A program made the translations under genes and the position numbers. Positions 23,204 through 47,410 of a stretch of 64,000 nucleotides of DNA are shown here, piece after piece (positions within the stretch are counted from its first letter, which is position 1; each line of letters opens with the position of its first letter). The stretch lies in NCBI GenBank assembly GCA_022566355.1, contig JADFJB010000001.1, positions 234-64,233 on the forward strand. Reading direction: 5' to 3'. The notes beneath the pieces are model-generated. The model searched no databases. It had not been told where the DNA came from and worked only from the letters and a program-made list of their open reading frames with translations. The DNA is from Candidatus Zhuqueibacterota bacterium. Its GTDB lineage: Bacteria; Zhuqueibacterota; JdFR-76; DREG01.

Positions 23204-25027
23204 TTAACCTGCCCCTCCACCACCCCCACCGGCGCCTCCGCCCCCACCGGCTGATGCACCGCCACCGGTTCCTGTGGCTGAACTAAAGCTGCTGCTTGCC
23301 ACGGTAACCATAGAAGAAACTGCAGTCCCAAATGCTGTTCCAAAGCTGTCACCCGAGTACTCACCATGATAGATGTACCATGGGAAAATGGTGCTGTGCA
23401 TTTTGTCAGGTACCAGGTTAATCAGTTGTTTAATTCGCTTGGACGTTAATCCAAGAATCATGCCGTAAATCAAATAACGATCCATCATCGTGGTTATTTC
23501 GCTTCGATCTGTTTGGGTAAATTTGTACCTGCGCAGGTATCGCCCTAAAGCTTTCCATTGCGCATATTGGTCAATGTATTCCCTTGAAATCCGGTAAGTG
23601 GCTACTGTGATAATAAACAATACCAAGCCTACCACACATGGGATAATTGCGCCGGGACCCGTAATAGGTATGGACACAAACCCTACCAGAATAAGACCTA
23701 GGGATGGGATCAAACCTTTCATCATTTTTCGTCTACTGTCTAAATCGTAAAACCCCTTTTCTTTTGCCAGGTCTGCAATTTCTTTTCTCCATTTGGAAAA
23801 CCATTTTGTCGTCTTACTTCTGGATTTTGCTATTTCTTTCATTGAAATTGAATGGCCATCCTTTGATAACTCCTCAAATAGATAATCGATGAGTTTATTT
23901 TCAAATGGTTGCAGGTCTCCAAATTTCTCTTCCAGATGATCCTTTTCTAATTTTATCGAGAATTCCGTTTTTTCTTTTTTACCAAAGATCGAATTGACGC
24001 TGACCTTCTCTTCCGAAATCTTAAGAAAACCTCTCCTGGCTAAATCAAAAAGAGTGGCAACCATTGCACTGCCTGTAACAGATCGATACTTGACAAAATA
24101 TCCCATAAGTGCAGGAGGCAAGTCATTGGGAATATCGGAATAATATTGGCTGCGAAATTTCGAAGGGTAAGGTCGGCCATGTTGATTGAAGATTGGCAGC
24201 CAAATTAGAAAACCTGCTATTGCTAAAACTGACAATACGATTGCACCTGTTTTCCAGCGCTTATTTCTTTCTGCCAATTCCTGTTGAGCCCTGATCCTTG
24301 CTTCATTGGCTTCCCGGGCCCATCGGGTCTCTTCCGCGATGATATTGTCCAACATACTCGTCGATGCCGATAACGGTAAATTTGAAACTAATCGTGCAGG
24401 GAATAAAATCCTGCCTTCCCAGAATCTATATCTTGGCAGATCCACAATATCCAGGTGGATTGTGGTTTCATCCATTATTGTTACATTTCCCCATAACGGA
24501 CCGTGCGCCCAGGCTCGCACTTCATCCAGTGCAGCGCCATATGGCAATTTTACGATTACATTGACTTCCCTGGTTCCGTGATCCCACTCACCGCCGACAA
24601 ATTGGTAATTGAGTTCAGCGACATCCGGATAAATATTCAGAATGTTTGTAAGCTTGTAGGAAAGGATAAAAGTCTTGCTTTCATTTCTTGCGCTATAAAA
24701 CCACTTCACATAAAATTCATCATTGCTATAACTAACCTGGTAGGTTCCCTTTTCTTTACCTGAACTACTGTGGTAAATAAAGTTTTCATCCCTTAATACA
24801 AAATTCTCAATTGAATCAAAACCTTTGACAGACTTTCGATAATCAGCCCAGCGAAATCTACCTTTGAACTTATAAGTCCTGAATTCCTGAATATCGATGC
24901 TGCCATCCAGGTTTACCGTGGCAATAATTTCAATTTTGATAATTTTGTAAGATTTGGCATATAGGGATAAAACATTCAATAAAGCTAATAGAAAAATGGT
25001 CATGCAAATAATTGAAATTCGTCTCAT
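23204..25027 (-). CDS. DUF2207 domain membrane protein with Gly-rich C-terminal tail
   Basis: 607 aa with signal peptide, extracytoplasmic domain, central TM helices and a terminal GGGASAGGGGGAGGGGGGAG tail. Confidence 0.75.
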   Translation of the reverse strand: MRRISIICMTIFLLALLNVLSLYAKSYKIIKIEIIATVNLDGSIDIQEFRTYKFKGRFRWADYRKSVKGFDSIENFVLRDENFIYHSSSGKEKGTYQVSYSNDEFYVKWFYSARNESKTFILSYKLTNILNIYPDVAELNYQFVGGEWDHGTREVNVIVKLPYGAALDEVRAWAHGPLWGNVTIMDETTIHLDIVDLPRYRFWEGRILFPARLVSNLPLSASTSMLDNIIAEETRWAREANEARIRAQQELAERNKRWKTGAIVLSVLAIAGFLIWLPIFNQHGRPYPSKFRSQYYSDIPNDLPPALMGYFVKYRSVTGSAMVATLFDLARRGFLKISEEKVSVNSIFGKKEKTEFSIKLEKDHLEEKFGDLQPFENKLIDYLFEELSKDGHSISMKEIAKSRSKTTKWFSKWRKEIADLAKEKGFYDLDSRRKMMKGLIPSLGLILVGFVSIPITGPGAIIPCVVGLVLFIITVATYRISREYIDQYAQWKALGRYLRRYKFTQTDRSEITTMMDRYLIYGMILGLTSKRIKQLINLVPDKMHSTIFPWYIYHGEYSGDSFGTAFGTAVSSMVTVASSSFSSATGTGGGASAGGGGGAGGGGGGAG

Positions 25028-27614: not shown

Positions 27615-27991
27615 TCAATCCTTTATCATTTTAATTGCATCTTCCATACTTGATGCAATATCGAATCCTTTTAAAGCGGGAAGGCCAATCATTGTCAGGC
27701 TGTCCATATATTCTTCAGGGAAATTGACACAAACTAAATGACCATTATCATTGTTGCTTACTTCTTGCCAAAGATTGAAAAGTGCTCTAACAACATTCTT
27801 GTCAGCAAATTTTTCTTCAATTTTGATAATACAGGAAGTTGTTTTTGAATCCTCTACTTGTTTTTGATACTGGTTAATTATTTTTCATTGATTATTTAAA
27901 GAATTCCCCTTATTAAAAGCAGTTCCTCATCGTATTTTAAAGTTAGAACAGGGATTCCTTCTTTAATCTTTCCATTAACCTTGACTCCCAT
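27615..27991 (-). pseudogene. STAS-domain (anti-sigma-factor-antagonist-like) gene, copy 1, frame-disrupted
   Basis: N-terminal frame encodes MGVKVNGKIKEGIPVLTLKYDEELLLIRGIL*. The C-terminal STAS part (KIINQYQKQVEDSKTTSCIIKIEEKFADKNVVRALFNLWQEVSNNDNGHLVCVNFPEEYMDSLTMIGLPALKGFDIASSMEDAIKMIKD) is in the -1 frame and preceded by an in-frame TGA. ~80% nt identity to copy 2. Confidence 0.55.
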
Positions 27992-28058
27992 TATCTGGCC
28001 CAATAATTAATTATTCTTAATAATGATCTGTATATTTTATATTAGGAATGTTCCTTTA

Positions 28059-28796
28059 CTAAAGTCTAGTAAGACTGGAAGTTAGATATAATTCAAGTTT
28101 CCACATGCGAAATGCCATTTGTCGTAAGCTTAGACTCACCAAAAGGCTAATAATTGTGAAAACAAGAAATTTCAAAAGTTGTGGCGAAAAATAAATCCAG
28201 GATTGGTTGGGAAATTGCTGAAAAACTTCAATATACATCAATATTATGAGTTGAATTGACAAAAGCAGGATAGCACAACTAACCCCCATGCTAAACCGAA
28301 ATCTCCTGTGTACCCTTTGAGCTTGTTTAAGTACAGCCGGACACCTTTCGCCAAATTTATCAGCGATAAATGTACGGTAAATCACCAGTCGATTCCAGGG
28401 GCTTGCAATTTGTAATGTTTCAATTATTCCAGATAACTGTTCCAACTCATTTTCAATATCAGAATTAGCATCAACTGTCAAATGATCGATTGTAGGAGAT
28501 GCAAATTTATAAATAATAATGTTAACTCGATCCAATATTTTTTGTCTAAAGTTTTTGCCTCTTTTTAGTTTTGCATGTGAATACCGGTAAAGTGCAACGT
28601 CGATATAAGAATTAATGATCAGACCAAATGTATAAGTTAAAATGAATCCCAGAAGAATAACAATAACCTTCTGATTCCAAAAACCTGATTTAAAATCAGG
28701 CCAATGCCATAGACCTACAGAAAAGAGTATAACTACTCCAGGACAAACATAGGTGAAAAACTCAAAAAGGTCGATCTTGTCCAGTATATCCTTCAT
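28059..28796 (-). CDS. hypothetical polytopic membrane protein
   Basis: 245 aa with ~5 predicted TM helices and no recognisable motif. Flanked by the two STAS copies as direct repeats. Confidence 0.5.
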   Translation of the reverse strand: MKDILDKIDLFEFFTYVCPGVVILFSVGLWHWPDFKSGFWNQKVIVILLGFILTYTFGLIINSYIDVALYRYSHAKLKRGKNFRQKILDRVNIIIYKFASPTIDHLTVDANSDIENELEQLSGIIETLQIASPWNRLVIYRTFIADKFGERCPAVLKQAQRVHRRFRFSMGVSCAILLLSIQLIILMYIEVFQQFPNQSWIYFSPQLLKFLVFTIISLLVSLSLRQMAFRMWKLELYLTSSLTRL

Positions 28797-28910
28797 AGAA
28801 CTAGATTTTACTTATTTGTTTACAATTTCATCTTAATTTATTTAATCTTATATATGAAAAACTGGGAGCCATATGATGTTTTTCTAATCCTAATTTAACA
28901 AACACTGTAT

Positions 28911-29296
28911 TCAACTTTTTATCTTTTTAATTGCGTCTTCCTCACTTGCAAGATAAAATCCTTTTAATACGGGCAAGCCAATTGATGTCAGGCTGTCCAT
29001 ATAATCTTCAGGATAATTGACGCAGACTAAAATACCATTATTATTGTCGGTTACTTCTTTCCAAAGATCAAAAAGTGCTCTAACAACAGCACTTCCAGCA
29101 AATTTAGCTTCAATTTTGATAATACAGGAAGTGGTTTCTGAGGCATCTTGTAGACTTTGGTACTGGTTAATTATTTCTTTACTAATTATTTTATCAACCC
29201 CCTTTTTAAAAGCAGTTCCTTATCCATATAATTTAAAGTGAGAACTATGATGCCATCTTCCATCTGGCCAGTAACTTTGATATCTTCTTTTTTCAT
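28911..29296 (-). CDS. STAS-domain protein, copy 2; intact only if a -1 frameshift occurs at U_UUA_AAA
   Basis: Frame 0: MKKEDIKVTGQMEDGIIVLTLNYMDKELLLK then RGLIK*. Frame -1 continues KGVDKIISKEIINQYQSLQDASETTSCIIKIEAKFAGSAVVRALFDLWKEVTDNNNGILVCVNYPEDYMDSLTSIGLPVLKGFYLASEEDAIKKIKS*. Junction lies on sense-strand cUUUUAAAAAggggg (forward 29203-29211). Length 386 nt = 129 codons - 1. Confidence 0.55.
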
Positions 29297-29638
29297 TATT
29301 ATACCTTAAAATTATTTTTAGTAATGATTTTTATATTTTAAAGTGCGATTATTATAAGTAGGTACCCACAATACTATTAACATAAATTAAATTTTCAGAT
29401 CTTTATTTTTTTCTTAGCCGGGACAACATCTTTGCTAAATATCATTTTCATGGTTCGCCCTAATTCTGACACTTCAATCTTACTAATTAATTAGGAATAT
29501 CACTTGTCTTTTGAATTTTAGCTGCATCTACATTTTTATTTTGCTACTAATTCTTCCTCTTTACTTGGAATATATTCGTTCATAGTTTTATATTTTGAGT
29601 CTTAGAGGCTTCGAGGCTGAATAGTTACAGATAGTGTA

Positions 29639-32475: not shown

Positions 32476-32769
32476 TTAATCGATCATGAGTACTATCTGA
32501 GATAATATACGATTATAACCTTCGTCAAATTTTAATGTTGCATCATCATCAATATACTTGCATCGATTAGATAGTTCTATTAGAACTTGTGTTTCACATG
32601 CCTCAGTTTCTGCATCGCTTAATTTTGCGATGAAAGCTGCTCTATATCTTCGTTTTCTCCATGCTTCTGCTAGATTAGTACAAACAGATCTTCATGAACG
32701 TCTTATTTGATCAACTAATGAAAATTTCTCTTCGTTTGGAAAACTTTTAGTAATTTTAAAAATTTTCAT
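32476..32769 (-). pseudogene. four-helix-bundle (23S rRNA IVS-protein family) gene with in-frame TGA
   Basis: MKIFKITKSFPNEEKFSLVDQIRRS-TGA-RSVCTNLAEAWRKRRYRAAFIAKLSDAETEACETQVLIELSNRCKYIDDDATLKF... matches the TIGR02436-type family (consensus ..QIRRAAVSIPSNIAEG..). Stop TGA at 32692-32694. Inserted between operon genes. Confidence 0.6.
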
Positions 32770-32806
32770 CGCTAGCTCAATTTCATTCTGATAAACTCTT
32801 AACTCT

Positions 32807-34894
32807 TTATAACTTTTTATTCTTGGCGCCATTCTCTATATCTCCCCGACTCTTATTAGAATCATTCTCCCCTTCGCCCATTCTCCCGTTCTCCGATTCA
32901 GTTAACTTCTGCCCCTTCTGGTTTTCGTTCCCTGATTCTGTTGAATTATCTTTATCAATATTTTTCATCATCTCCTCCATCATTATCCGCCCTTCAGCGA
33001 TGCCTTCTTCTGCGATTTCGAGTGTGATTAACTCAACTTTTATCTTATTGGCAAAATCCACAATTCTTTCTTTGGTTTTATCACGCATAAAGCCTTCCGG
33101 AACGCGATTAAGGCGTGCAACGGCTGAAGAAGTCCAGGAGAACTCGCCGTCTTTGATGATTTCTGTGGCCGGACCGCTTGCACTGTAAGGTGTCTTCTTA
33201 AGCTTCCCTCGCTCTTCGAGATTTTTCGTTTCCTCGATAACATCTCCGGCAACTTCATAAACCTGAAGTTTGGTTATGATCGGAATTTTCTTTACCCGGG
33301 CGGATTTCTCGATCTGCGCTTTCGTTCGTCGTCTTTGATATCCTGACGGAACCTCATGTAAAGCCTGCTTTGCATCGCTGGTCCATTTCAGTTTAATATT
33401 GTCAAAGGTTAACTCTTCGGAGATAGCACCTTCCAGGGGTGCAAGGTTTTCGATGGCTTGTTTGTCCAGTTTTTGGAATTGATCGGTTTTCGATTTACAT
33501 ATAGGGCAAATGACCGGTTTAATATCTTTAGCCGCATAGCCACATTCTTTACAGATATAAGTTTCGGACTCCAGCAGGTTGCCTTTGTCGATCGCCACCT
33601 CTTCCGCGATAATGCCCATCGCTTGCATGGCCTTTGGCGGCAAAATTGTTGACAGCGATTTTTCGATAATTTTTATATTGATAACCGAATGTCCTCTTTC
33701 CATGGCCCAACGATGTATAGTGGTCCGTGCAATCCCACGTACACCTGCAGGCGCCGTATTTAACAACTTGGTGGCGTCCTCGGTCCAGATCATAGATTCT
33801 TCTGCCCGAATATCGATAGCTGGCACAAACCTTTTACTGGATAACAGGACATTACAGGGCGCCATTCTGAGAAGGTTCTCGGTATTGCTGCCTATATCCA
33901 TTTCTTCATCACTGTGTACACCAATTCGACCCATTACCAGCAGCCAGGGTCTTTCTCGACGAACGTATTGAAGGATCTTTTCAAACGCTTTACCATCGAT
34001 TAAAGTAATTTTTAATTCAATGCCTTGTTCGCTTGCTATCCTGCGGGAGACTTCAAGATGCGATTGATAGATCTTGGCCAGACCAGTATCGATTACATCC
34101 TCATGAAGTTGTTCCTGCTCTTTAAATTTGAAAACCTTGGTCGCTTTTTCGGTTAGAACATGTACAAGACTGTTGAAAAGGGTGTAATGTAAATAAGGAT
34201 CATAAACGGAAATTGCTTCGACTTCTTTATTCAAAGCTTTTCCCAATTCAAGCGCAGTCTTTAAACCTGCAAACGACTCCGGACTGCCGTCAACACAAAC
34301 AACGATATTACCGCCGTTGCCCAGTTCATGCTTAACTTCTCCGTTGCCGCTCCCATCGAGTTGTTCTTCAAGGGGTGACGTGTTCTTGACGATCAAGGTG
34401 TCGGTTTTGATTCTACGAACCACACGATCTGTAACACTACCGATCACGCTATCTCTCACAGCGCCAAGCCCCAAAGCTCCCATAATCACCAGGTCGTAAT
34501 CACTTTCGTTGATATCATCAACGAGGACTTTATAATTCTTGCCATCGATCATTTTAGGTTCGAAAGGGATTTTCGCCGCCTGGCAGTATTTGTTCATCAC
34601 TTCCAGATATGAGTCTGAAATAAGTTCCAGTCCCATGGTGATCAGGGTGTCGTGGATGCTTCGTTGCTTCTCTAATTCTTCCTCAACTTGATACTCTTCC
34701 GGTAGGGTGAATTCCATCTGTTTAAACCGTATGTCATGCATCTTGGCTGCATAGGCATGACAACCAACCAGCTTTGATTCGAACCGTTTTGAAAAGTCAA
34801 CTGCAAACTCGATGCTCGATAAGGAATGATCTGAATTATCCACGGGAACATAAATCTTTTTAAACATAATTCTCCTTTCGAAGGCCTTTAGCAA
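32807..34894 (-). CDS. multidomain protein: 2x universal stress protein domains + zinc ribbon + 3x PCP_red domains
   Basis: USP motifs (KKIYVPVDNSDHS...; NIVVCVDGSPESF...), CKECG...CPICKS ribbon, and three W-T-(E/S)-(D/A)A...(V/I)P.G(F/Y/V).R... modules (MIWTEDATKLLNTAPAGVRGIARTT; LKWTSDAKQALHEVPSGYQRRRTK; FSWTSSAVARLNRVPEGFMRDKTK). Confidence 0.7.
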   Translation of the reverse strand: MLKAFERRIMFKKIYVPVDNSDHSLSSIEFAVDFSKRFESKLVGCHAYAAKMHDIRFKQMEFTLPEEYQVEEELEKQRSIHDTLITMGLELISDSYLEVMNKYCQAAKIPFEPKMIDGKNYKVLVDDINESDYDLVIMGALGLGAVRDSVIGSVTDRVVRRIKTDTLIVKNTSPLEEQLDGSGNGEVKHELGNGGNIVVCVDGSPESFAGLKTALELGKALNKEVEAISVYDPYLHYTLFNSLVHVLTEKATKVFKFKEQEQLHEDVIDTGLAKIYQSHLEVSRRIASEQGIELKITLIDGKAFEKILQYVRRERPWLLVMGRIGVHSDEEMDIGSNTENLLRMAPCNVLLSSKRFVPAIDIRAEESMIWTEDATKLLNTAPAGVRGIARTTIHRWAMERGHSVINIKIIEKSLSTILPPKAMQAMGIIAEEVAIDKGNLLESETYICKECGYAAKDIKPVICPICKSKTDQFQKLDKQAIENLAPLEGAISEELTFDNIKLKWTSDAKQALHEVPSGYQRRRTKAQIEKSARVKKIPIITKLQVYEVAGDVIEETKNLEERGKLKKTPYSASGPATEIIKDGEFSWTSSAVARLNRVPEGFMRDKTKERIVDFANKIKVELITLEIAEEGIAEGRIMMEEMMKNIDKDNSTESGNENQKGQKLTESENGRMGEGENDSNKSRGDIENGAKNKKL

Positions 34895-36366: not shown

Positions 36367-36696
36367 TTAGTCTCTTATTTCAAGAGCTATTTTTAAAGTT
36401 TGATTTAATTCATTTAGTTTTAATGGGGATAACCTGCAAATGAAGTTTTTCAATATAATTTTAGAAAGGCTTACAAGCTCATCACAATGAATACTACTGT
36501 CATGTTTAAGTCCTTCAGCAATTCCAACTAATACCTGAGTGGATAAACCATCATGACTCGAATAAAGTGGTGCACAAATGACTGTAGAAAATTGTGAATC
36601 TATTAATAGTTGCCGACTAACTACTACAAATATTCTCGACTTTTTTGGATCCTTAGAGGAGGGCTTTTTAACTTTATATAAATCGCCACGTCTCAC
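36367..36696 (-). CDS. type II toxin, MazF/PemK (Kid) family endoribonuclease
   Basis: MRRGDLYKV...[30 protein letters not shown] matches the PemK/MazF N-terminal beta-barrel signature. 4-bp overlap with the upstream small gene. Confidence 0.75.
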
Positions 36697-36923
36697 ACGG
36701 GAACCTGGTAATCTAATACATCACTAGCTTCGTTATTGAGACGATCAGAATTGTTATTTATGATTTCAAGATCACAGCGATCCTGTACCTCTTTCAAATA
36801 TATCTCTATATAAATCCACAAAGCTTTTTCAATAAAATCTGATCGACTTTTATTTTGCCCTGATTTTTCATCAATAGCATTCAATAATTCTTCAGACAAT
36901 GTAACTGATGTTTTGATTTTCAT
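36693..36923 (-). CDS. RHH/CopG-type antitoxin for MazF-like toxin
   Basis: 76 aa. [30 protein letters not shown] is a ribbon-helix-helix N-terminal signature. Translationally coupled to the toxin. Confidence 0.6.
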
Positions 36924-37053
36924 ACTACCAATATACCACCTATGTTTTTTTAATGCAATAAATTTTGTTTATTTTTTTGGAAAACTGCTAAGTTGACAAA
37001 ATTAATCATTAAACCGAATGTTTTAAAATCACCTCTTTTCTTGGCTAACAAGA

Positions 37054-37698
37054 TTAGTTCAACACAACATACCTTTCCAACCTGGAAACCTCCTTTTCGT
37101 CCACGTACTTACCAATTTCACGACGAAATTGCTTTAGGTTTCTATATGGGCGGTACTCTTTAAATTCATGAAGCATCCGTTTACCAACTCCGGGAATACT
37201 CAGGATGTCTTCGTCACTTGCCGTATTCAGATTGATTGGGACAAAAACATACTGTTCCAGGCGCGCCAATTCCTTATCGTTCACATATTTTCCGATCTCT
37301 CTTCGGAATTGCGCCAGGGCCTTATAGGGACGATACTCCTCGAACTCATGGGCCATACGTTTACCTACACCGGGAACCAGCCAAACTTCTTTTCGGGAAG
37401 CTGTGTTGAGGTTAATTGGGATAAATAATGTAACATACAATTTGGACAATGAGTCTTTGTGTACTGACTGACTGAGTAATGTGTCCAATTCGGTCATTCT
37501 CAAAAAAGGCCGGTTTTCCAAAATATCCTTTACAAGCTTTTTATTGAGTTGAGGAAGTGAAAGCAGCTCCTTTTCCCCTGCCCGATTCGGATTTAGAACA
37601 TTTTTGTTGTTGCCAACCTGACTAAATGCGGCACATACAGTAATAATTACAAAAATGAAAACCATCATTATTGTAAATAAAGATTTATTTGAAGTCAT
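37054..37698 (-). CDS. helix-hairpin-helix repeat protein (ComEA-like), internally duplicated
   Basis: Signal peptide. Repeated INLNTAS..E.L..PGVGKRM.HEF motifs (HhH). A ~180-bp DNA duplication (about 37075-37255 and 37255-37435) yields two near-identical protein modules. Confidence 0.65.
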   Translation of the reverse strand: MTSNKSLFTIMMVFIFVIITVCAAFSQVGNNKNVLNPNRAGEKELLSLPQLNKKLVKDILENRPFLRMTELDTLLSQSVHKDSLSKLYVTLFIPINLNTASRKEVWLVPGVGKRMAHEFEEYRPYKALAQFRREIGKYVNDKELARLEQYVFVPINLNTASDEDILSIPGVGKRMLHEFKEYRPYRNLKQFRREIGKYVDEKEVSRLERYVVLN

Positions 37699-38215
37699 CT
37701 AAATTCTCCCGTTTTAATTTGGATTCTTTTTGGTTTATTCGAAAAACCGGATGTCTAAAAGTGTAAACCGATCCCAGCAGACCAAGCTGGATCATTATGC
37801 CTGGAGCCAAAAAAGGTGTTGCACCTTTGATCGATTTCCAGAAAAGTTCTAATCCGGATAAAGAAGGATACATCTCTAACTCGAATTCTACATTAACTCG
37901 ATAATGTAAGATAACGCCAACACAGCCACTAATCATAAATAATATCATCACTATCTGAAGCACTCGCAAAACCATAGAAACACGTTTGAAAGCAAACCAG
38001 CCTAGAACTACCAGACTACCGCAAATAAGAATAAGAGGCACAAATTGCCAGTAGACTTCAAAATGTTCTAGTAGCAGAAGTTCCACACCAGCGCCCAGTA
38101 AACCGGCAACAAATATGAGTAAAAGAAGATTTCGAATAATCTTACCAGTTGTGAAATTGCTGTGTTTGTCAGATGAGGTATTGTTCATTAGATAATGTAC
38201 ATAATACATTTTCAA
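37685..38215 (-). CDS. hypothetical 4-TM membrane protein
   Basis: 176 aa, hydrophobic. Divergent from the TetR gene. Confidence 0.45.
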   Translation of the reverse strand: MKMYYVHYLMNNTSSDKHSNFTTGKIIRNLLLLIFVAGLLGAGVELLLLEHFEVYWQFVPLILICGSLVVLGWFAFKRVSMVLRVLQIVMILFMISGCVGVILHYRVNVEFELEMYPSLSGLELFWKSIKGATPFLAPGIMIQLGLLGSVYTFRHPVFRINQKESKLKRENLDDFK

Positions 38216-44963: not shown

Positions 44964-45369
44964 TTAGGTTATTATAGCAATCTGAATCAAAATTCCCAGG
45001 TAACTTGAAGCTTTTACCTGGTGTTCAGTCTCTTCAGGACCTTCCAAATTGTTATGTATTTCATGAGTGCTTTTTCCGATAAGGAATAGACCCCCAAAGA
45101 TCAGAATTAAGTCCGTCCTGAGATGTCATTTGCAAAAATAGTAAAAAAAGGTTTGGTTAAGCCCATCACCCAGGTCAATGAGAGGAGTAATAAAATTCGC
45201 GTAATCATCGCCAGGCTAAGTCCAATTATTCTGGCTTGATTTCTTTGGCTGGAGGGTAAACGTCCAACTAGGATTGATATAAAAATGATATTATCGATGC
45301 CGAGGACAATCTCCAAAGCTGTAAGTGTTGTAAGGGCAATCCATGTTTGGGGTCAATTAACCAATCCAT
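44964..45369 (-). pseudogene. terC: terC-family membrane protein remnant (two frameshifts, 3' truncated)
   Basis: MDWLIDPK.. then a frameshift into ..TWIALTTLTALEIVLGIDNIIFISILVGRLPSSQRNQARIIGLSLAMITRILLLLSLTWVMGLTKPFFTIFANDISGR. A second frameshift leads into DLILIFGGLFLIGKSTHEIHNNLEGPEETEHQ... Ends after ~135 aa, whereas full TerC is >220 aa. Confidence 0.65.
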
Positions 45370-46775: not shown

Positions 46776-47237
46776 TCAGGTTAGTTGATATTCAGTAGTG
46801 ATTTCAATCGCTTTATGCAAAGATTTATAAACCGGACAGTAATCTGCGTGCATACTATGAACGCGTTCGATCGTTTCTTTAGCCTCTTTTGTTGCAGATA
46901 TCCTATAGAGTACATGAATACGCCGAATAACAAGGACATTGTCTTCTAATTCAACTTCTCCCCTGACTTCCGCAGTAAGCTTCTTATTGCTAGCATCAAC
47001 TTGACGCGCTTCCAGCGCGCTTCCAAAAGTTCCGGTGAGTCAGCCGCCGGTTGCTGCGATCACATAATCTATGGTTGTTGCTTGTGGTTCGGAGATATCC
47101 GGACTGATCCCGTAATGCTTGGCGATATCACCGTGCACACCAAACTTAACCGTTTGGTTTACTGGCAGATAGGCTGTACGTAATGGCCCGTGATGGCGTT
47201 CGATTTGTATTTTTGAGACATAGACAACATCTGGCAT
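46776..47237 (-). CDS. osmC: OsmC-family peroxiredoxin-like protein with in-frame TGA at the conserved peroxidatic Cys (candidate selenoprotein, or point-mutated pseudogene)
   Basis: Track ORF 47040-47237 ends IDYVIAATGG-TGA. The same frame continues LTGTFGSALEARQV...HSMHADYCPVYKSLHKAIEITTEYQLT* to 46776. The C-terminal ...CPV..L...EIT..YQL is colinear with E. coli OsmC (..AGCPVSQVLKAEITLDYQLKS), and the TGA aligns with ..AAAHAG-C-FSMAL. Confidence 0.7.
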
Positions 47238-47410
47238 TTTGACCTCCGATTCATATTCGTGTTTATAAAATTTACTTTTTTGATAAAAACATCCTGAACT
47301 TTTTTATGGCGAAGTAAGCTAGCTAAAACCATCTAAACTGTCAAGTAATAAGTTAACAATTTAGAAGCCTCTTCGGTTAAGGCTTGATTATTGGTTCTTT
47401 GAATTTGTAA

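What the first reader, a model, noticed from the sequence alone, without database searches (positions are those of the whole stretch)
27615..29296. Two direct-repeat STAS-domain genes flanking a membrane-protein gene, both interrupted at the same position; copy 2 breaks exactly on a canonical -1 slippery heptamer U_UUA_AAA
Both copies (~80% nt identity over ~330 bp) encode an anti-sigma-antagonist-like STAS domain whose N-terminal beta-strands (MKKEDIKVTGQMEDGIIVLTLNYMDKELLLK / MGVKVNGKIKEGIPVLTLKYDEELLLIRG) are in frame 0 and the rest in frame -1. Total lengths are 3n-1 in both. In copy 2 the junction is cUUUUAAAAAggggg, i.e. X_XXY_YYZ = U_UUA_AAA. This is a textbook -1 programmed-frameshift site that would give ...KELLLK-KGVDKIIS.... 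Copy 1 has lost the heptamer (UUUAAUAAG) and gained a TGA in the -1 frame, so it is decayed. The frame break appears to predate the duplication. The options are a programmed frameshift gene, a duplicated ancestral pseudogene, or a shared homopolymer sequencing artefact.
Basis: seen in the sequence. Interest (0 to 1): 0.65.

Follow-up and report, generated by a model that had tools for sequence, protein, structure and literature searches.

The report
Two decaying STAS-gene copies, not recoding
Two duplicated copies of a small signalling (STAS-fold) gene in an uncultured KSB1 bacterium are really broken in nature, but by different mutations about 20 bases apart, and the whole gene cassette is visibly decaying in the population, so this is most likely ordinary gene decay and not a programmed ribosomal frameshift.

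Summary
Two ~82%-identical direct repeats on the minus strand (copy 2 at 29296-28911, copy 1 at 27991-27615) flank a 4-TM membrane-protein gene. Each has length 3n-1 and is split between two frames. Copy 2 has an in-frame U_UUA_AAA at 29210-29204. The fused copy 2 models confidently as an anti-sigma-antagonist (STAS) fold, although Pfam does not detect it.

The frame break is not an artefact: the same state is present in contigs from at least 11 independent metagenome samples.

The interpretation mostly fails.
- The lesions are not at the same position. Copy 2 lost one base at its G tract. Copy 1 stays in frame there, carries an in-frame TAA, and lost a base 22 nt further on. It is closed in all three frames and has lost the conserved Ser.
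- About 170 family clusters, and five loci read at DNA level, are single uninterrupted ORFs.
- No stimulatory RNA structure follows the heptamer.
- In the population, copy 2 carries only nonsynonymous SNPs, G4 alleles that a -1 shift cannot rescue, and gene-conversion tracts that remove the Ser.
- The neighbouring membrane gene is frameshifted in most contigs and deleted in one.
- The cognate kinase/phosphatase gene is absent from the window.

Verdict: independently inactivated pseudogenes in a decaying partner-switching cassette (about 0.8). A functional -1 frameshift is about 0.07.

The parts
28911..29296 (-). Copy 2 of the STAS-fold gene (386 nt, 3n-1), directly upstream of the membrane gene. 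It is intact apart from one missing base.
   Evidence: The family HMM scores the fused product at 139 bits.
29186..29296 (-). Copy 2 zero-frame ORF: 36 aa, MKKEDIKVTGQMEDGIIVLTLNYMDKELLLKRGLIK, ending in TAA at 29188-29186. This is the only product expected from standard decoding.
   Evidence: This exact ORF, or its T9A variant, is on 23 contigs.
29204..29210 (-). In-frame heptamer U_UUA_AAA (codons CTT TTA AAA) inside the 0/-1 overlap window, which runs from about 29219 to 29186.
   Evidence: No stimulatory structure follows it.
29198..29202 (-). G5 tract: the inferred site of copy 2's 1-nt deletion. Copy 1 and L001 read AGG GGA here. The tract is polymorphic in the population: G5, GGGGT, and G4.
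   Evidence: Codon alignment. BLAST gap placement. G4 alleles L019 and L020.
28911..29219 (-). Copy 2 -1-frame segment encoding alpha1 to alpha4 of the STAS fold. It has no ATG, GTG or TTG start before residue M100.
29091..29093 (-). AGT codon for Ser69 in the AGS motif at the N-terminus of helix alpha2. This is the inferred phospho-acceptor. It is replaced by ADK or AEK in the chimeric alleles L015-L017.
28059..28796 (-). 245-aa membrane protein with four hydrophobic segments, the conserved downstream partner of the STAS gene. A 1-nt deletion at 28313 gives a 183-aa allele in most population contigs.
27615..27991 (-). Copy 1 of the STAS-fold gene (377 nt). It is a pseudogene: closed in all three frames between 27898 and 27885.
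   Evidence: The family HMM scores it at 128.6 bits.
27896..27898 (-). Copy 1 in-frame nonsense codon TAA, aligned with AAA (Lys) in copy 2 and GAG in L001.
27881..27885 (-). Copy 1 A5 tract: the inferred site of its own 1-nt deletion, 22 nt downstream of the position equivalent to copy 2's lesion.
27798..27806 (-). Copy 1 codons GCT GAC AAG (ADK), which replace the family's AGS motif, so the conserved Ser is lost.
29310..29353 (-). Duplicated leader upstream of copy 2. Its counterpart is 28009-28052, upstream of copy 1, at 77% identity.

Best explanation
The locus is the decaying remnant of a three-gene partner-switching cassette in a candidate division KSB1 bacterium. Intact versions elsewhere have three genes in order: a sensor fused to a SpoIIE-type PP2C phosphatase and an RsbW-type kinase; a ~130-aa divergent STAS protein with a conserved Ser; and a ~250-aa 4-TM membrane protein.

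In this genome the STAS gene was duplicated, so that the two copies flank the membrane gene. The kinase/phosphatase gene is not within the 64-kb window. Both STAS copies have been inactivated independently in the AT-rich, homopolymer-rich linker between the N-terminal beta-hairpin and helix alpha1.
- Copy 2 lost one base at its G tract.
- Copy 1 acquired a TAA nonsense codon, lost one base in an A tract 22 nt further downstream, and lost the conserved Ser.

Standard decoding of copy 2 yields only a 36-aa peptide. The U_UUA_AAA heptamer is a by-product of Leu-Leu-Lys codons in an AT-rich gene. Without a stimulator it would let well under 1% of ribosomes reach the full-length frame. That is leakiness, not programmed expression.

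Shown here: the lesions are real, they differ between copies, relatives are uninterrupted, no stimulatory structure is present, and population variation is neutral-looking. Inferred: loss of function, and the partner-switching role of the intact cassette.
For: 1. Real lesions. The window, L003, L004 and L008-L017 agree without indels at the junctions, across at least 11 samples.

2. Different lesions.
- Codon alignment with intact homologues: copy 1 reads AGG GGA ATT CTT TAA ATA ATC AAT G-A AAA and L001 reads AGG GGA ACC AGT GAG..., whereas copy 2 reads A-G GGG GTT.
- Identity in the 22-nt segment is 7/22 in register and 14/21 shifted by one base.

3. Copy 1 is dead. All three frames are closed, AGS is replaced by ADK, and Y95 by F. 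L012 carries an additional nonsense SNP at 27925.

4. Relatives are single ORFs.
- The three homologues are full-length.
- One search found 170 representative clusters, nearly all 120-140 aa and covering profile positions 1-127.
- Of the DNA loci read, L001, L002, L005 and L006 have no heptamer at the site.
- The one candidate fragment, P0079, was a mis-called start.

5. No frameshift stimulator. The 126 nt from the site fold at -15.1 kcal/mol, z = +1.24, and 181 of 200 shuffles fold as well. In E. coli, heptamers without stimulators give only 2-10 times a 0.055% background (PMC4066793).

6. Relaxed selection.
- dN/dS between the copies is 0.56, with codon-position differences of 24/23/33.
- Population SNPs in copy 2 are 0 synonymous and 4 nonsynonymous, including P110H at a Pro shared by both copies and two homologues. 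In the membrane gene they are 0 and 2, plus a frameshift. In flanking genes they are 10 and 8 (Fisher p = 0.022).

7. Alleles incompatible with a -1 PRF design.
- G4 alleles put the C-terminal part two bases out of frame (L019, L020).
- Conversion tracts put ADK or AEK into copy 2 (L015-L017).

8. The cassette is decaying.
- The 183-aa truncated membrane allele is on 13 contigs against 4 for the 245-aa allele.
- L010 lacks the membrane gene through recombination between the repeats.
- No SpoIIE/HATPase_c_2 homologue is in the window, though one is present upstream in L002 and L006.
- The cassette is 31.9% GC against 40.6% for the window.

9. No repaired allele exists in the protein collection.

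10. Other disrupted genes occur in the same window: a TerC fragment with a 1-nt deletion and no slippery site, and a 23S-IVP gene with an in-frame TGA.
Against: - Apart from the missing base, copy 2 is pristine. It keeps every family-conserved residue including Ser69 and scores 139 bits against the family HMM. Either the lesion is recent or the gene is still used.
- A correctly phased X_XXY_YYZ heptamer sits in the 13-codon overlap window, which has a prior of roughly 0.1.
- The G5 state predominates: 23 contigs against 2 with G4.
- All population contigs are at least 96-99% identical, so they give little evolutionary depth.
- The SNP counts are small.
- L010 and the chimeric contigs could in principle be assembly chimeras, although several are k=141 contigs from different samples.
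- Nothing here measures expression.
Confidence: 0.8

Rival explanations
1. Copy 2 is a functional gene expressed by programmed -1 ribosomal frameshifting at U_UUA_AAA (29210-29204). This would produce a 36-aa zero-frame peptide and a 128-aa STAS protein in a fixed ratio. Copy 1 is a decayed duplicate.
For: - The heptamer is in the correct register inside the overlap window.
- The trans-frame product aligns without an indel to intact homologues and folds as a confident STAS domain.
- Copy 2 keeps all conserved residues.
- The G5 state predominates across samples.
Against: - No downstream stem-loop (z = +1.24). The G5 tract starts 1 nt after the heptamer, and the only SD-like AAGGA lies 5 nt upstream, within conserved K-E codons.
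- No other family member is frameshifted.
- The missing base maps to the G tract and not to the heptamer.
- Such heptamers are common in ordinary genes here, with 7 U_UUA_AAA in intact ORFs.
- Population SNPs are 0 synonymous and 4 nonsynonymous. G4 alleles and Ser-removing conversion tracts occur in copy 2.
- The membrane partner is truncated in most contigs.
- There is no obvious use for a 36-aa beta-hairpin product.
- Heptamers without a stimulator give under about 0.6% frameshifting in E. coli (PMC4066793).
Confidence: 0.07
2. The G tract is a phase-variable contingency switch: G6 = ON (an intact ORF reading ...KRGVDK...), and G5 or G4 = OFF. It would toggle the STAS protein by slipped-strand mispairing.
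For: - Tract length is polymorphic. G4 occurs on two different haplotype backgrounds, T9 in L019 and A9 in L020.
- A G-to-T SNP at the tract end recurs in L012, L013 and L017.
- Adding one G restores a product matching the LLLERG of P0001.
Against:
- From general knowledge of contingency loci, tracts of 5 are far shorter than typical phase-variable tracts (at least 7-8).
- L020 has only 2.9x coverage.
- Copy 1 and the membrane gene are inactivated by unrelated lesions.
Confidence: 0.05
3. A single ancestral pseudogene was duplicated: the frame break predates the duplication.
For: - Both copies have length 3n-1, and their ORFs break within about 25 nt of each other.
- There is no net length difference between the copies across the junction: both shared blocks have a spacing of 1293.
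Against: - The nucleotide alignment needs two compensating indels between the copies.
- Copy 1's zero frame stays homologous to intact proteins for 9 codons beyond copy 2's break.
- This model needs three indel events instead of two.
- dN/dS of 0.56, significantly below 1 (p = 0.04), implies some purifying selection after the duplication.
Confidence: 0.05
4. Homopolymer sequencing or assembly error in an otherwise intact gene.
For: The break lies in a T4A5G5 run.
Against: - The same state is found in independent assemblies (MEGAHIT k141, SPIRE-style scaffolds, Logan, SPAdes) from at least 11 samples and several projects. These contigs differ from the window by SNPs and so are not the same assembly.
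- Copy 1 additionally has a substitution-type stop.
Confidence: 0.01

Closest known systems
SpoIIAA / RsbV anti-sigma-factor antagonists (STAS domain) in partner-switching modules with RsbW/SpoIIAB kinases and RsbU/SpoIIE PP2C phosphatases
   Same: - The predicted fold order is beta-hairpin, alpha1, beta3, alpha2, beta4, alpha3, beta5, alpha4. Top structural matches are 4hyl, 8ih8, 1tid/1th8 (SpoIIAA) and 6m36 (RsbV), with TM 0.6-0.77.
- A conserved Ser sits at the N-terminus of alpha2.
- Intact relatives lie directly downstream of a SpoIIE + HATPase_c_2 protein.
   Different: - There is no Pfam or NCBIfam STAS hit, and the profile-to-PDB sequence match is marginal (E = 0.04).
- In relatives the kinase and phosphatase are fused into one sensor protein.
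- The conserved downstream partner is an uncharacterised 4-TM membrane protein and not a sigma factor.
- In this window the genes are broken and the kinase/phosphatase is missing.
Bacterial programmed -1 frameshifting (dnaX gamma/tau; IS3/IS911 orfAB)
   Same: An X_XXY_YYZ heptamer in the zero-frame register, a short zero-frame extension ending in a stop, and a downstream domain in the -1 frame.
   Different: - From general knowledge, those systems have an upstream SD-like element at about 10 nt and/or a downstream hairpin or pseudoknot, preferentially use X_XXA_AAG, and are conserved across orthologues.
- PMC4066793 gives the efficiency range.
- Here there is no stimulator, Z = A, no conservation, and alleles incompatible with -1 rescue.
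Leaky translational 'correction' of indel mutations (adventitious frameshifting; Atkins et al. 2016, PMC5009743 abstract)
   Same: A 1-nt deletion in a run that is itself slippery could allow low-level restoration of the frame.
   Different: There is no evidence that any rescue occurs here or is selected for. The surrounding cassette is being lost.
Homopolymer-tract phase variation (contingency loci)
   Same: A coding-region G tract with length polymorphism (G5/G4) that changes the reading frame.
   Different: The tract is only 5 nt and no in-frame (G6) allele was observed.

Membership tests
Programmed -1 ribosomal frameshift gene | Slippery heptamer X_XXY_YYZ in the zero-frame register within the 0/-1 overlap | tested here: met
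   Copy 2 has U_UUA_AAA at 29210-29204. Copy 1 has UUUAAUA, which is not slippery. Background is 0.08-0.13 such heptamers per 13 codons.
Programmed -1 ribosomal frameshift gene | Stimulatory element: a downstream hairpin or pseudoknot 5-9 nt away, or an upstream SD-like sequence at about 10-14 nt | tested here: not met
   The downstream 126 nt fold no better than shuffles (z = +1.24). The best local stem is 7 bp with only 2 G-C pairs. The SD-like AAGGA is only 5 nt upstream, inside conserved Lys-Glu codons. Pseudoknots were checked only by eye.
Programmed -1 ribosomal frameshift gene | Frameshift architecture conserved in orthologues | tested here: not met
   All homologues are single ORFs. 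Four intact loci were read at DNA level with no heptamer at the site. P0079 was a mis-called start.
Programmed -1 ribosomal frameshift gene | Purifying selection on the trans-frame product | tested here: inconclusive
   There are 0 synonymous and 4 nonsynonymous SNPs, G4 alleles, and Ser-removing conversion tracts, all pointing to relaxation. Numbers are small (p = 0.07 for copy 2 alone).
Programmed -1 ribosomal frameshift gene | Trans-frame protein detected | not testable with these tools
   Needs proteomics, ribosome profiling or a reporter assay.
STAS / anti-sigma-factor antagonist fold | SpoIIAA-like alpha/beta fold | tested here: met
   AF2 pLDDT 89.2 and pTM 0.85. The top 30 Foldseek PDB hits are STAS proteins, probability 1.00, TM 0.6-0.77.
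STAS / anti-sigma-factor antagonist fold | Sequence match to curated STAS models | tested here: not met
   No Pfam, NCBIfam or PADLOC hit for the fused proteins or for intact homologues. The family profile against PDB gives 4hyl at E = 0.04 only.
STAS / anti-sigma-factor antagonist fold | Conserved phosphorylatable Ser/Thr at the N-terminus of helix alpha2 | tested here: met
   Ser69 (AGS) is conserved in 83% of 139 family members and is present in copy 2. It is replaced by Lys in copy 1. Equivalence to SpoIIAA Ser58 is inferred from its position in the model.
STAS / anti-sigma-factor antagonist fold | Linkage to an RsbW-type kinase and a PP2C phosphatase | tested here: not met
   Met in the intact loci L002 and L006 (SpoIIE + HATPase_c_2) and in the kinase C-terminal ends seen in L001 and L018. 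Not met in this window: tblastn found no hit at E <= 1.
Pseudogene | ORF disrupted relative to intact homologues by lesions that are real in the DNA | tested here: met
Pseudogene | Relaxed selection, or further degradation, in the population | tested here: met
   dN/dS is 0.56. The SNP spectrum differs from flanking genes at p = 0.022. There are extra nonsense and indel alleles, a truncated partner gene and a deletion allele.
Phase-variable contingency locus | Both ON and OFF tract lengths present in the population | tested here: not met
   Only G5, G4 and GGGGT were seen. No in-frame allele was found.

The most novel reading that the evidence does not exclude
Copy 2 is kept as a deliberately low-output gene. 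Either a stimulator-less -1 frameshift at U_UUA_AAA, or reversible slippage of the adjacent G tract, sets the dose of a divergent STAS partner-switching protein that controls the neighbouring 4-TM membrane protein. This would be the first recoding- or phase-controlled anti-sigma-antagonist-type regulator.
Probability: 0.07. Interest if true: 0.5.

Novelty: new member of a known kind. Interest (0 to 1): 0.15.

Why it matters
Mainly as a caution. A perfectly phased 'textbook' slippery heptamer at a frame break is weak evidence for recoding in an AT-rich gene. One-base deletions arise preferentially in the same homopolymer runs that look slippery, and such heptamers occur about once per 160 codons in ordinary genes of this window.

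The case also shows that independent metagenome assemblies can stand in for read-level checks, and can expose ongoing gene decay in an uncultured lineage: frameshift, nonsense, gene-conversion and deletion alleles.

A secondary point is that the intact relatives define an undescribed cassette: a sensor-PP2C-kinase fusion, a divergent STAS protein that Pfam does not detect, and a conserved 4-TM protein. This may be a partner-switching module with a membrane output.

Tried and rejected
- **Sequencing artefact.** Rejected by independent assemblies.
- **TGA read as sense** (to rescue copy 1). Rejected: TGA terminates 11 of 44 large ORFs, and the TGA lies in an out-of-register stretch.
- **Separate expression of the C-terminal part by re-initiation.** Rejected: there is no ATG, GTG or TTG in that frame before Met100.
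- **Transcriptional slippage.** Considered unlikely because the runs are only 4-5 nt. This rests on general knowledge and was not tested.
- **+1 frameshift at copy 1's CTT TAA.** Rejected: the +1 frame stops two codons later.
- **P0079 as a possibly frameshifted relative.** It was a mis-called start in an intact ORF.
- **Genome-collection scan with the STAS alignment.** Found nothing. The scan with the membrane protein found only L007, where the gene sits alone next to a tRNA.
- **Family libraries.** Pfam, NCBIfam and PADLOC gave no meaningful family for the STAS or membrane proteins.
- **RNA searches.** Rfam found no RNA family in the window.
- **Promoter/terminator scan.** It gave no more sites than shuffles.
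- **First submissions.** They were repeated with alignment A4.
Full report
**What is in the sequence**

On the minus strand the region holds, in order:
- copy 2 (ATG 29296 to TGA 28911, 386 nt);
- a 114-nt spacer;
- a 245-aa ORF (28796-28059) with four hydrophobic segments;
- a 67-nt spacer;
- copy 1 (ATG 27991 to TGA 27615, 377 nt);
- the Tex gene.

The two copies are about 82% identical (230-nt block at 82%). The duplication includes about 45 nt of leader. Both lengths are 3n-1.

Each copy has an N-terminal beta-hairpin segment in one frame and the remainder in the -1 frame. Copy 2's zero frame reads CTT TTA AAA AGG GGG TTG ATA AAA TAA. U_UUA_AAA (29210-29204) is therefore correctly phased, and the run is T4A5G5, not T5A5G5.

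**Is it a STAS gene?**

Pfam, NCBIfam and PADLOC do not recognise the conceptual fusion proteins or their intact homologues.

The fused copy 2 nevertheless models with pLDDT 89 and pTM 0.85. Its secondary-structure order is beta1-beta2, alpha1, beta3, alpha2, beta4, alpha3, beta5, alpha4. Its best PDB matches are all anti-sigma-factor antagonists or STAS domains, including 4hyl, RsfB, SpoIIAA, RsbV, RsbS and SLC26 STAS, with TM 0.6-0.77. A 75-member family profile reaches the same 4hyl chain at only E = 0.04.

**Relatives**

The fused protein finds three full-length homologues of 130-131 aa at 37-50% identity. A profile search of 1.84 billion representatives finds 170 clusters, nearly all 120-140 aa and covering the whole profile.

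At DNA level:
- L001, L002, L005, L006 and L018 are single uninterrupted ORFs.
- Where downstream sequence is available (L001, L002, L006, L018), a homologue of the membrane protein follows within 8-17 nt.
- L002 and L006 are preceded by a large protein with SpoIIE (PP2C) and HATPase_c_2 (RsbW-type kinase) domains. The C-terminal ends of equivalent proteins are visible in L001 and L018.

This is a partner-switching cassette. The family conserves an AGS motif whose Ser (83% of members) sits at the N-terminus of helix alpha2. That is the position of the phospho-acceptor in SpoIIAA-type proteins; the equivalence is inferred.

The window contains no homologue of the kinase/phosphatase protein.

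**Not an artefact**

The exact 245-aa membrane protein and the exact 36-aa zero-frame ORF of copy 2 occur on contigs from many independent metagenome assemblies. These include MEGAHIT k141 contigs, LIUR22-1 and ZHOU22-1 scaffolds, and Logan assemblies.

L003 (8.7 kb) differs from the window by 12 substitutions and no gaps. L004 differs by one substitution and no gaps. The others likewise show no indel at the junctions.

The source organism is a candidate division KSB1 bacterium (MCH8124362.1).

**The two breaks are not the same**

Across the junction the copies have no net length difference. The 22 nt between the well-aligned blocks, however, are 7/22 identical in register and 14/21 identical when shifted by one base. 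BLAST independently inserts a gap at about 27905 and another at about 27883.

Codon alignment with intact homologues shows where each base was lost:
- Copy 1 stays in the ancestral frame past the G tract. It reads AGG GGA ATT CTT TAA ATA ATC AAT G-A AAA ATA ATT, against AGG GGA ACC AGT GAG in L001. It has a TAA nonsense codon (27898-27896) and its own 1-nt deletion in the A5 run (27881-27885).
- Copy 2 lacks a base at the G tract: A-G GGG GTT.

Copy 1 is closed in all three frames between these lesions. It has also replaced AGS by ADK, and the conserved Tyr95 by Phe. The frame break therefore does not predate the duplication. Two independent 1-nt deletions falling within 22 nt of each other in a ~380-nt gene has a chance of roughly 0.1, and more in a homopolymer-rich linker.

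**Testing programmed frameshifting in copy 2**

- *Stimulators.* The 126 nt starting at the site fold at -15.1 kcal/mol against -19.0 +/- 3.1 for shuffles (z = +1.24). The only nearby stem is 7 bp with two G-C pairs. The G tract starts 1 nt after the heptamer, too close to act as a spacer-separated stem.
- *Efficiency.* In E. coli, heptamers without stimulators exceed a 0.055% background by only 2-10 fold (PMC4066793).
- *Specificity.* In-frame X_XXY_YYZ heptamers occur 108 times in the window's intact ORFs. Seven of them are U_UUA_AAA, and copy 2's own N-terminal part has a second one.
- *Origin of the heptamer.* CTT TTA is shared with copy 1 (CTT TTA ATA) and encodes the conserved Leu-Leu, so the heptamer is a codon-usage by-product.
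- *Conservation.* No relative is frameshifted (see above).

**Population evidence**

- Point polymorphisms in copy 2 are all nonsynonymous in the would-be product: T9A, V33F, P110H and D121E. The membrane gene has two nonsynonymous SNPs and a 1-nt deletion. Flanking genes show 10 synonymous and 8 nonsynonymous SNPs. Fisher p = 0.022 for the cassette and 0.07 for copy 2 alone.
- L019 and L020 carry a G4 tract on two different haplotypes. This places the C-terminal part two bases out of frame, where a -1 slip leads to a stop.
- L015-L017 carry copy-1-derived conversion tracts in copy 2 that replace AGS by ADK or AEK.
- L010 joins copy 2 to the tail and downstream flank of copy 1, deleting the membrane gene.
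- The 183-aa frameshifted membrane allele is on 13 contigs against 4 for the intact allele.
- No repaired (in-frame) allele exists among 5.8 billion clusters, or by exact look-up of six candidate sequences.
- Between the copies, dN/dS is 0.56 with nearly flat codon-position differences of 24/23/33.
- The cassette is 31.9% GC against 40.6% for the window.

**Caveats**

- Copy 2 is otherwise intact and scores 139 bits against the family HMM, compared with 129 bits for copy 1. Its lesion is therefore either recent or tolerated.
- The population is shallow, at 96% identity or more.
- The SNP counts are small.
- The chimeric contigs could be assembly products.
- Nothing here measures expression.
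- A low level of adventitious frame restoration of the kind reviewed in PMC5009743 cannot be excluded.

**Conclusion**

These are two independently inactivated copies of a divergent STAS gene, in a partner-switching cassette that has lost its kinase/phosphatase neighbour and is being eroded in a KSB1 population. The slippery heptamer is most likely incidental.

I put about 0.8 on this. The rivals are about 0.07 for functional -1 PRF, 0.05 for G-tract phase variation, 0.05 for a shared ancestral break, and 0.01 for artefact.

Noticed in passing
window 46779-47303 (-), TGA at 47040-47042: An OsmC/Ohr-like ORF is interrupted by a single in-frame TGA (...AATGG[TGA]LTGTFG...) at the position where, from my recollection of the family, the conserved Cys lies. 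This makes it a candidate selenocysteine codon. A GC-rich hairpin lies about 20 nt downstream, but the fold is not better than shuffles.
   Followed up: partly
window 32479-32835 (-), TGA at about 32692-32694: A four-helix-bundle '23S rRNA intervening sequence protein' gene (PF05635 in L003) carries an in-frame TGA (DQIRRS*RSVCTNLAEAW). This is either a nonsense pseudogene or recoding. L003, which shows no gaps and no substitution there, has the same state.
   Followed up: partly
window 44967-45352 (-): A TerC-family fragment has a 1-nt deletion (expected CGG GAC, found CGGAC, near 45115) and no slippery site. This is another frameshift pseudogene in the same window.
   Followed up: partly
window 24143 (L003 allele): In the L003 strain the DUF2207 membrane-protein gene (23204-25027) carries a TAT-to-TAA nonsense SNP at codon 295 and is called as two genes. 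This is further strain-level gene inactivation.
   Followed up: partly
window 28313 (alleles L008, L012; proteins P0160, P0161, P0163): A 1-nt deletion in a GGG run truncates the 245-aa membrane protein to 183 aa. The truncated allele is on 13 contigs and the intact allele on 4.
   Followed up: yes
L002:2-3414, L006:1267-5161, L018:1-1619, L001: A conserved, undescribed three-gene cassette: a sensor-SpoIIE(PP2C)-HATPase_c_2 fusion, a divergent STAS protein of ~130 aa with no Pfam hit (about 170 clusters at 50% identity), and a 4-TM protein of ~250 aa with no Pfam hit. It may be a partner-switching module with a membrane output.
   Followed up: partly
L007:4700-4960: In the MAG contig CAZOAL010000008.1 the membrane-protein homologue stands alone, with no STAS gene. 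By eye from the sequence (no tRNA scan was run on L007), it sits just downstream of a tRNA-like gene and a partial repeat of that gene's 3' end, which would suggest insertion at a tRNA site.
   Followed up: no
window 36370-36968 (-): An overlapping pair of small ORFs resembles a ribbon-helix-helix antitoxin plus a MazF/PemK-type toxin. This was judged from the sequences only.
   Followed up: no
window 37724-37816 (-): ARAGORN calls a 93-nt tRNA-Thr(GGU) that lies inside the predicted ORF 37685-38215. Either the ORF or the tRNA call is spurious.
   Followed up: no
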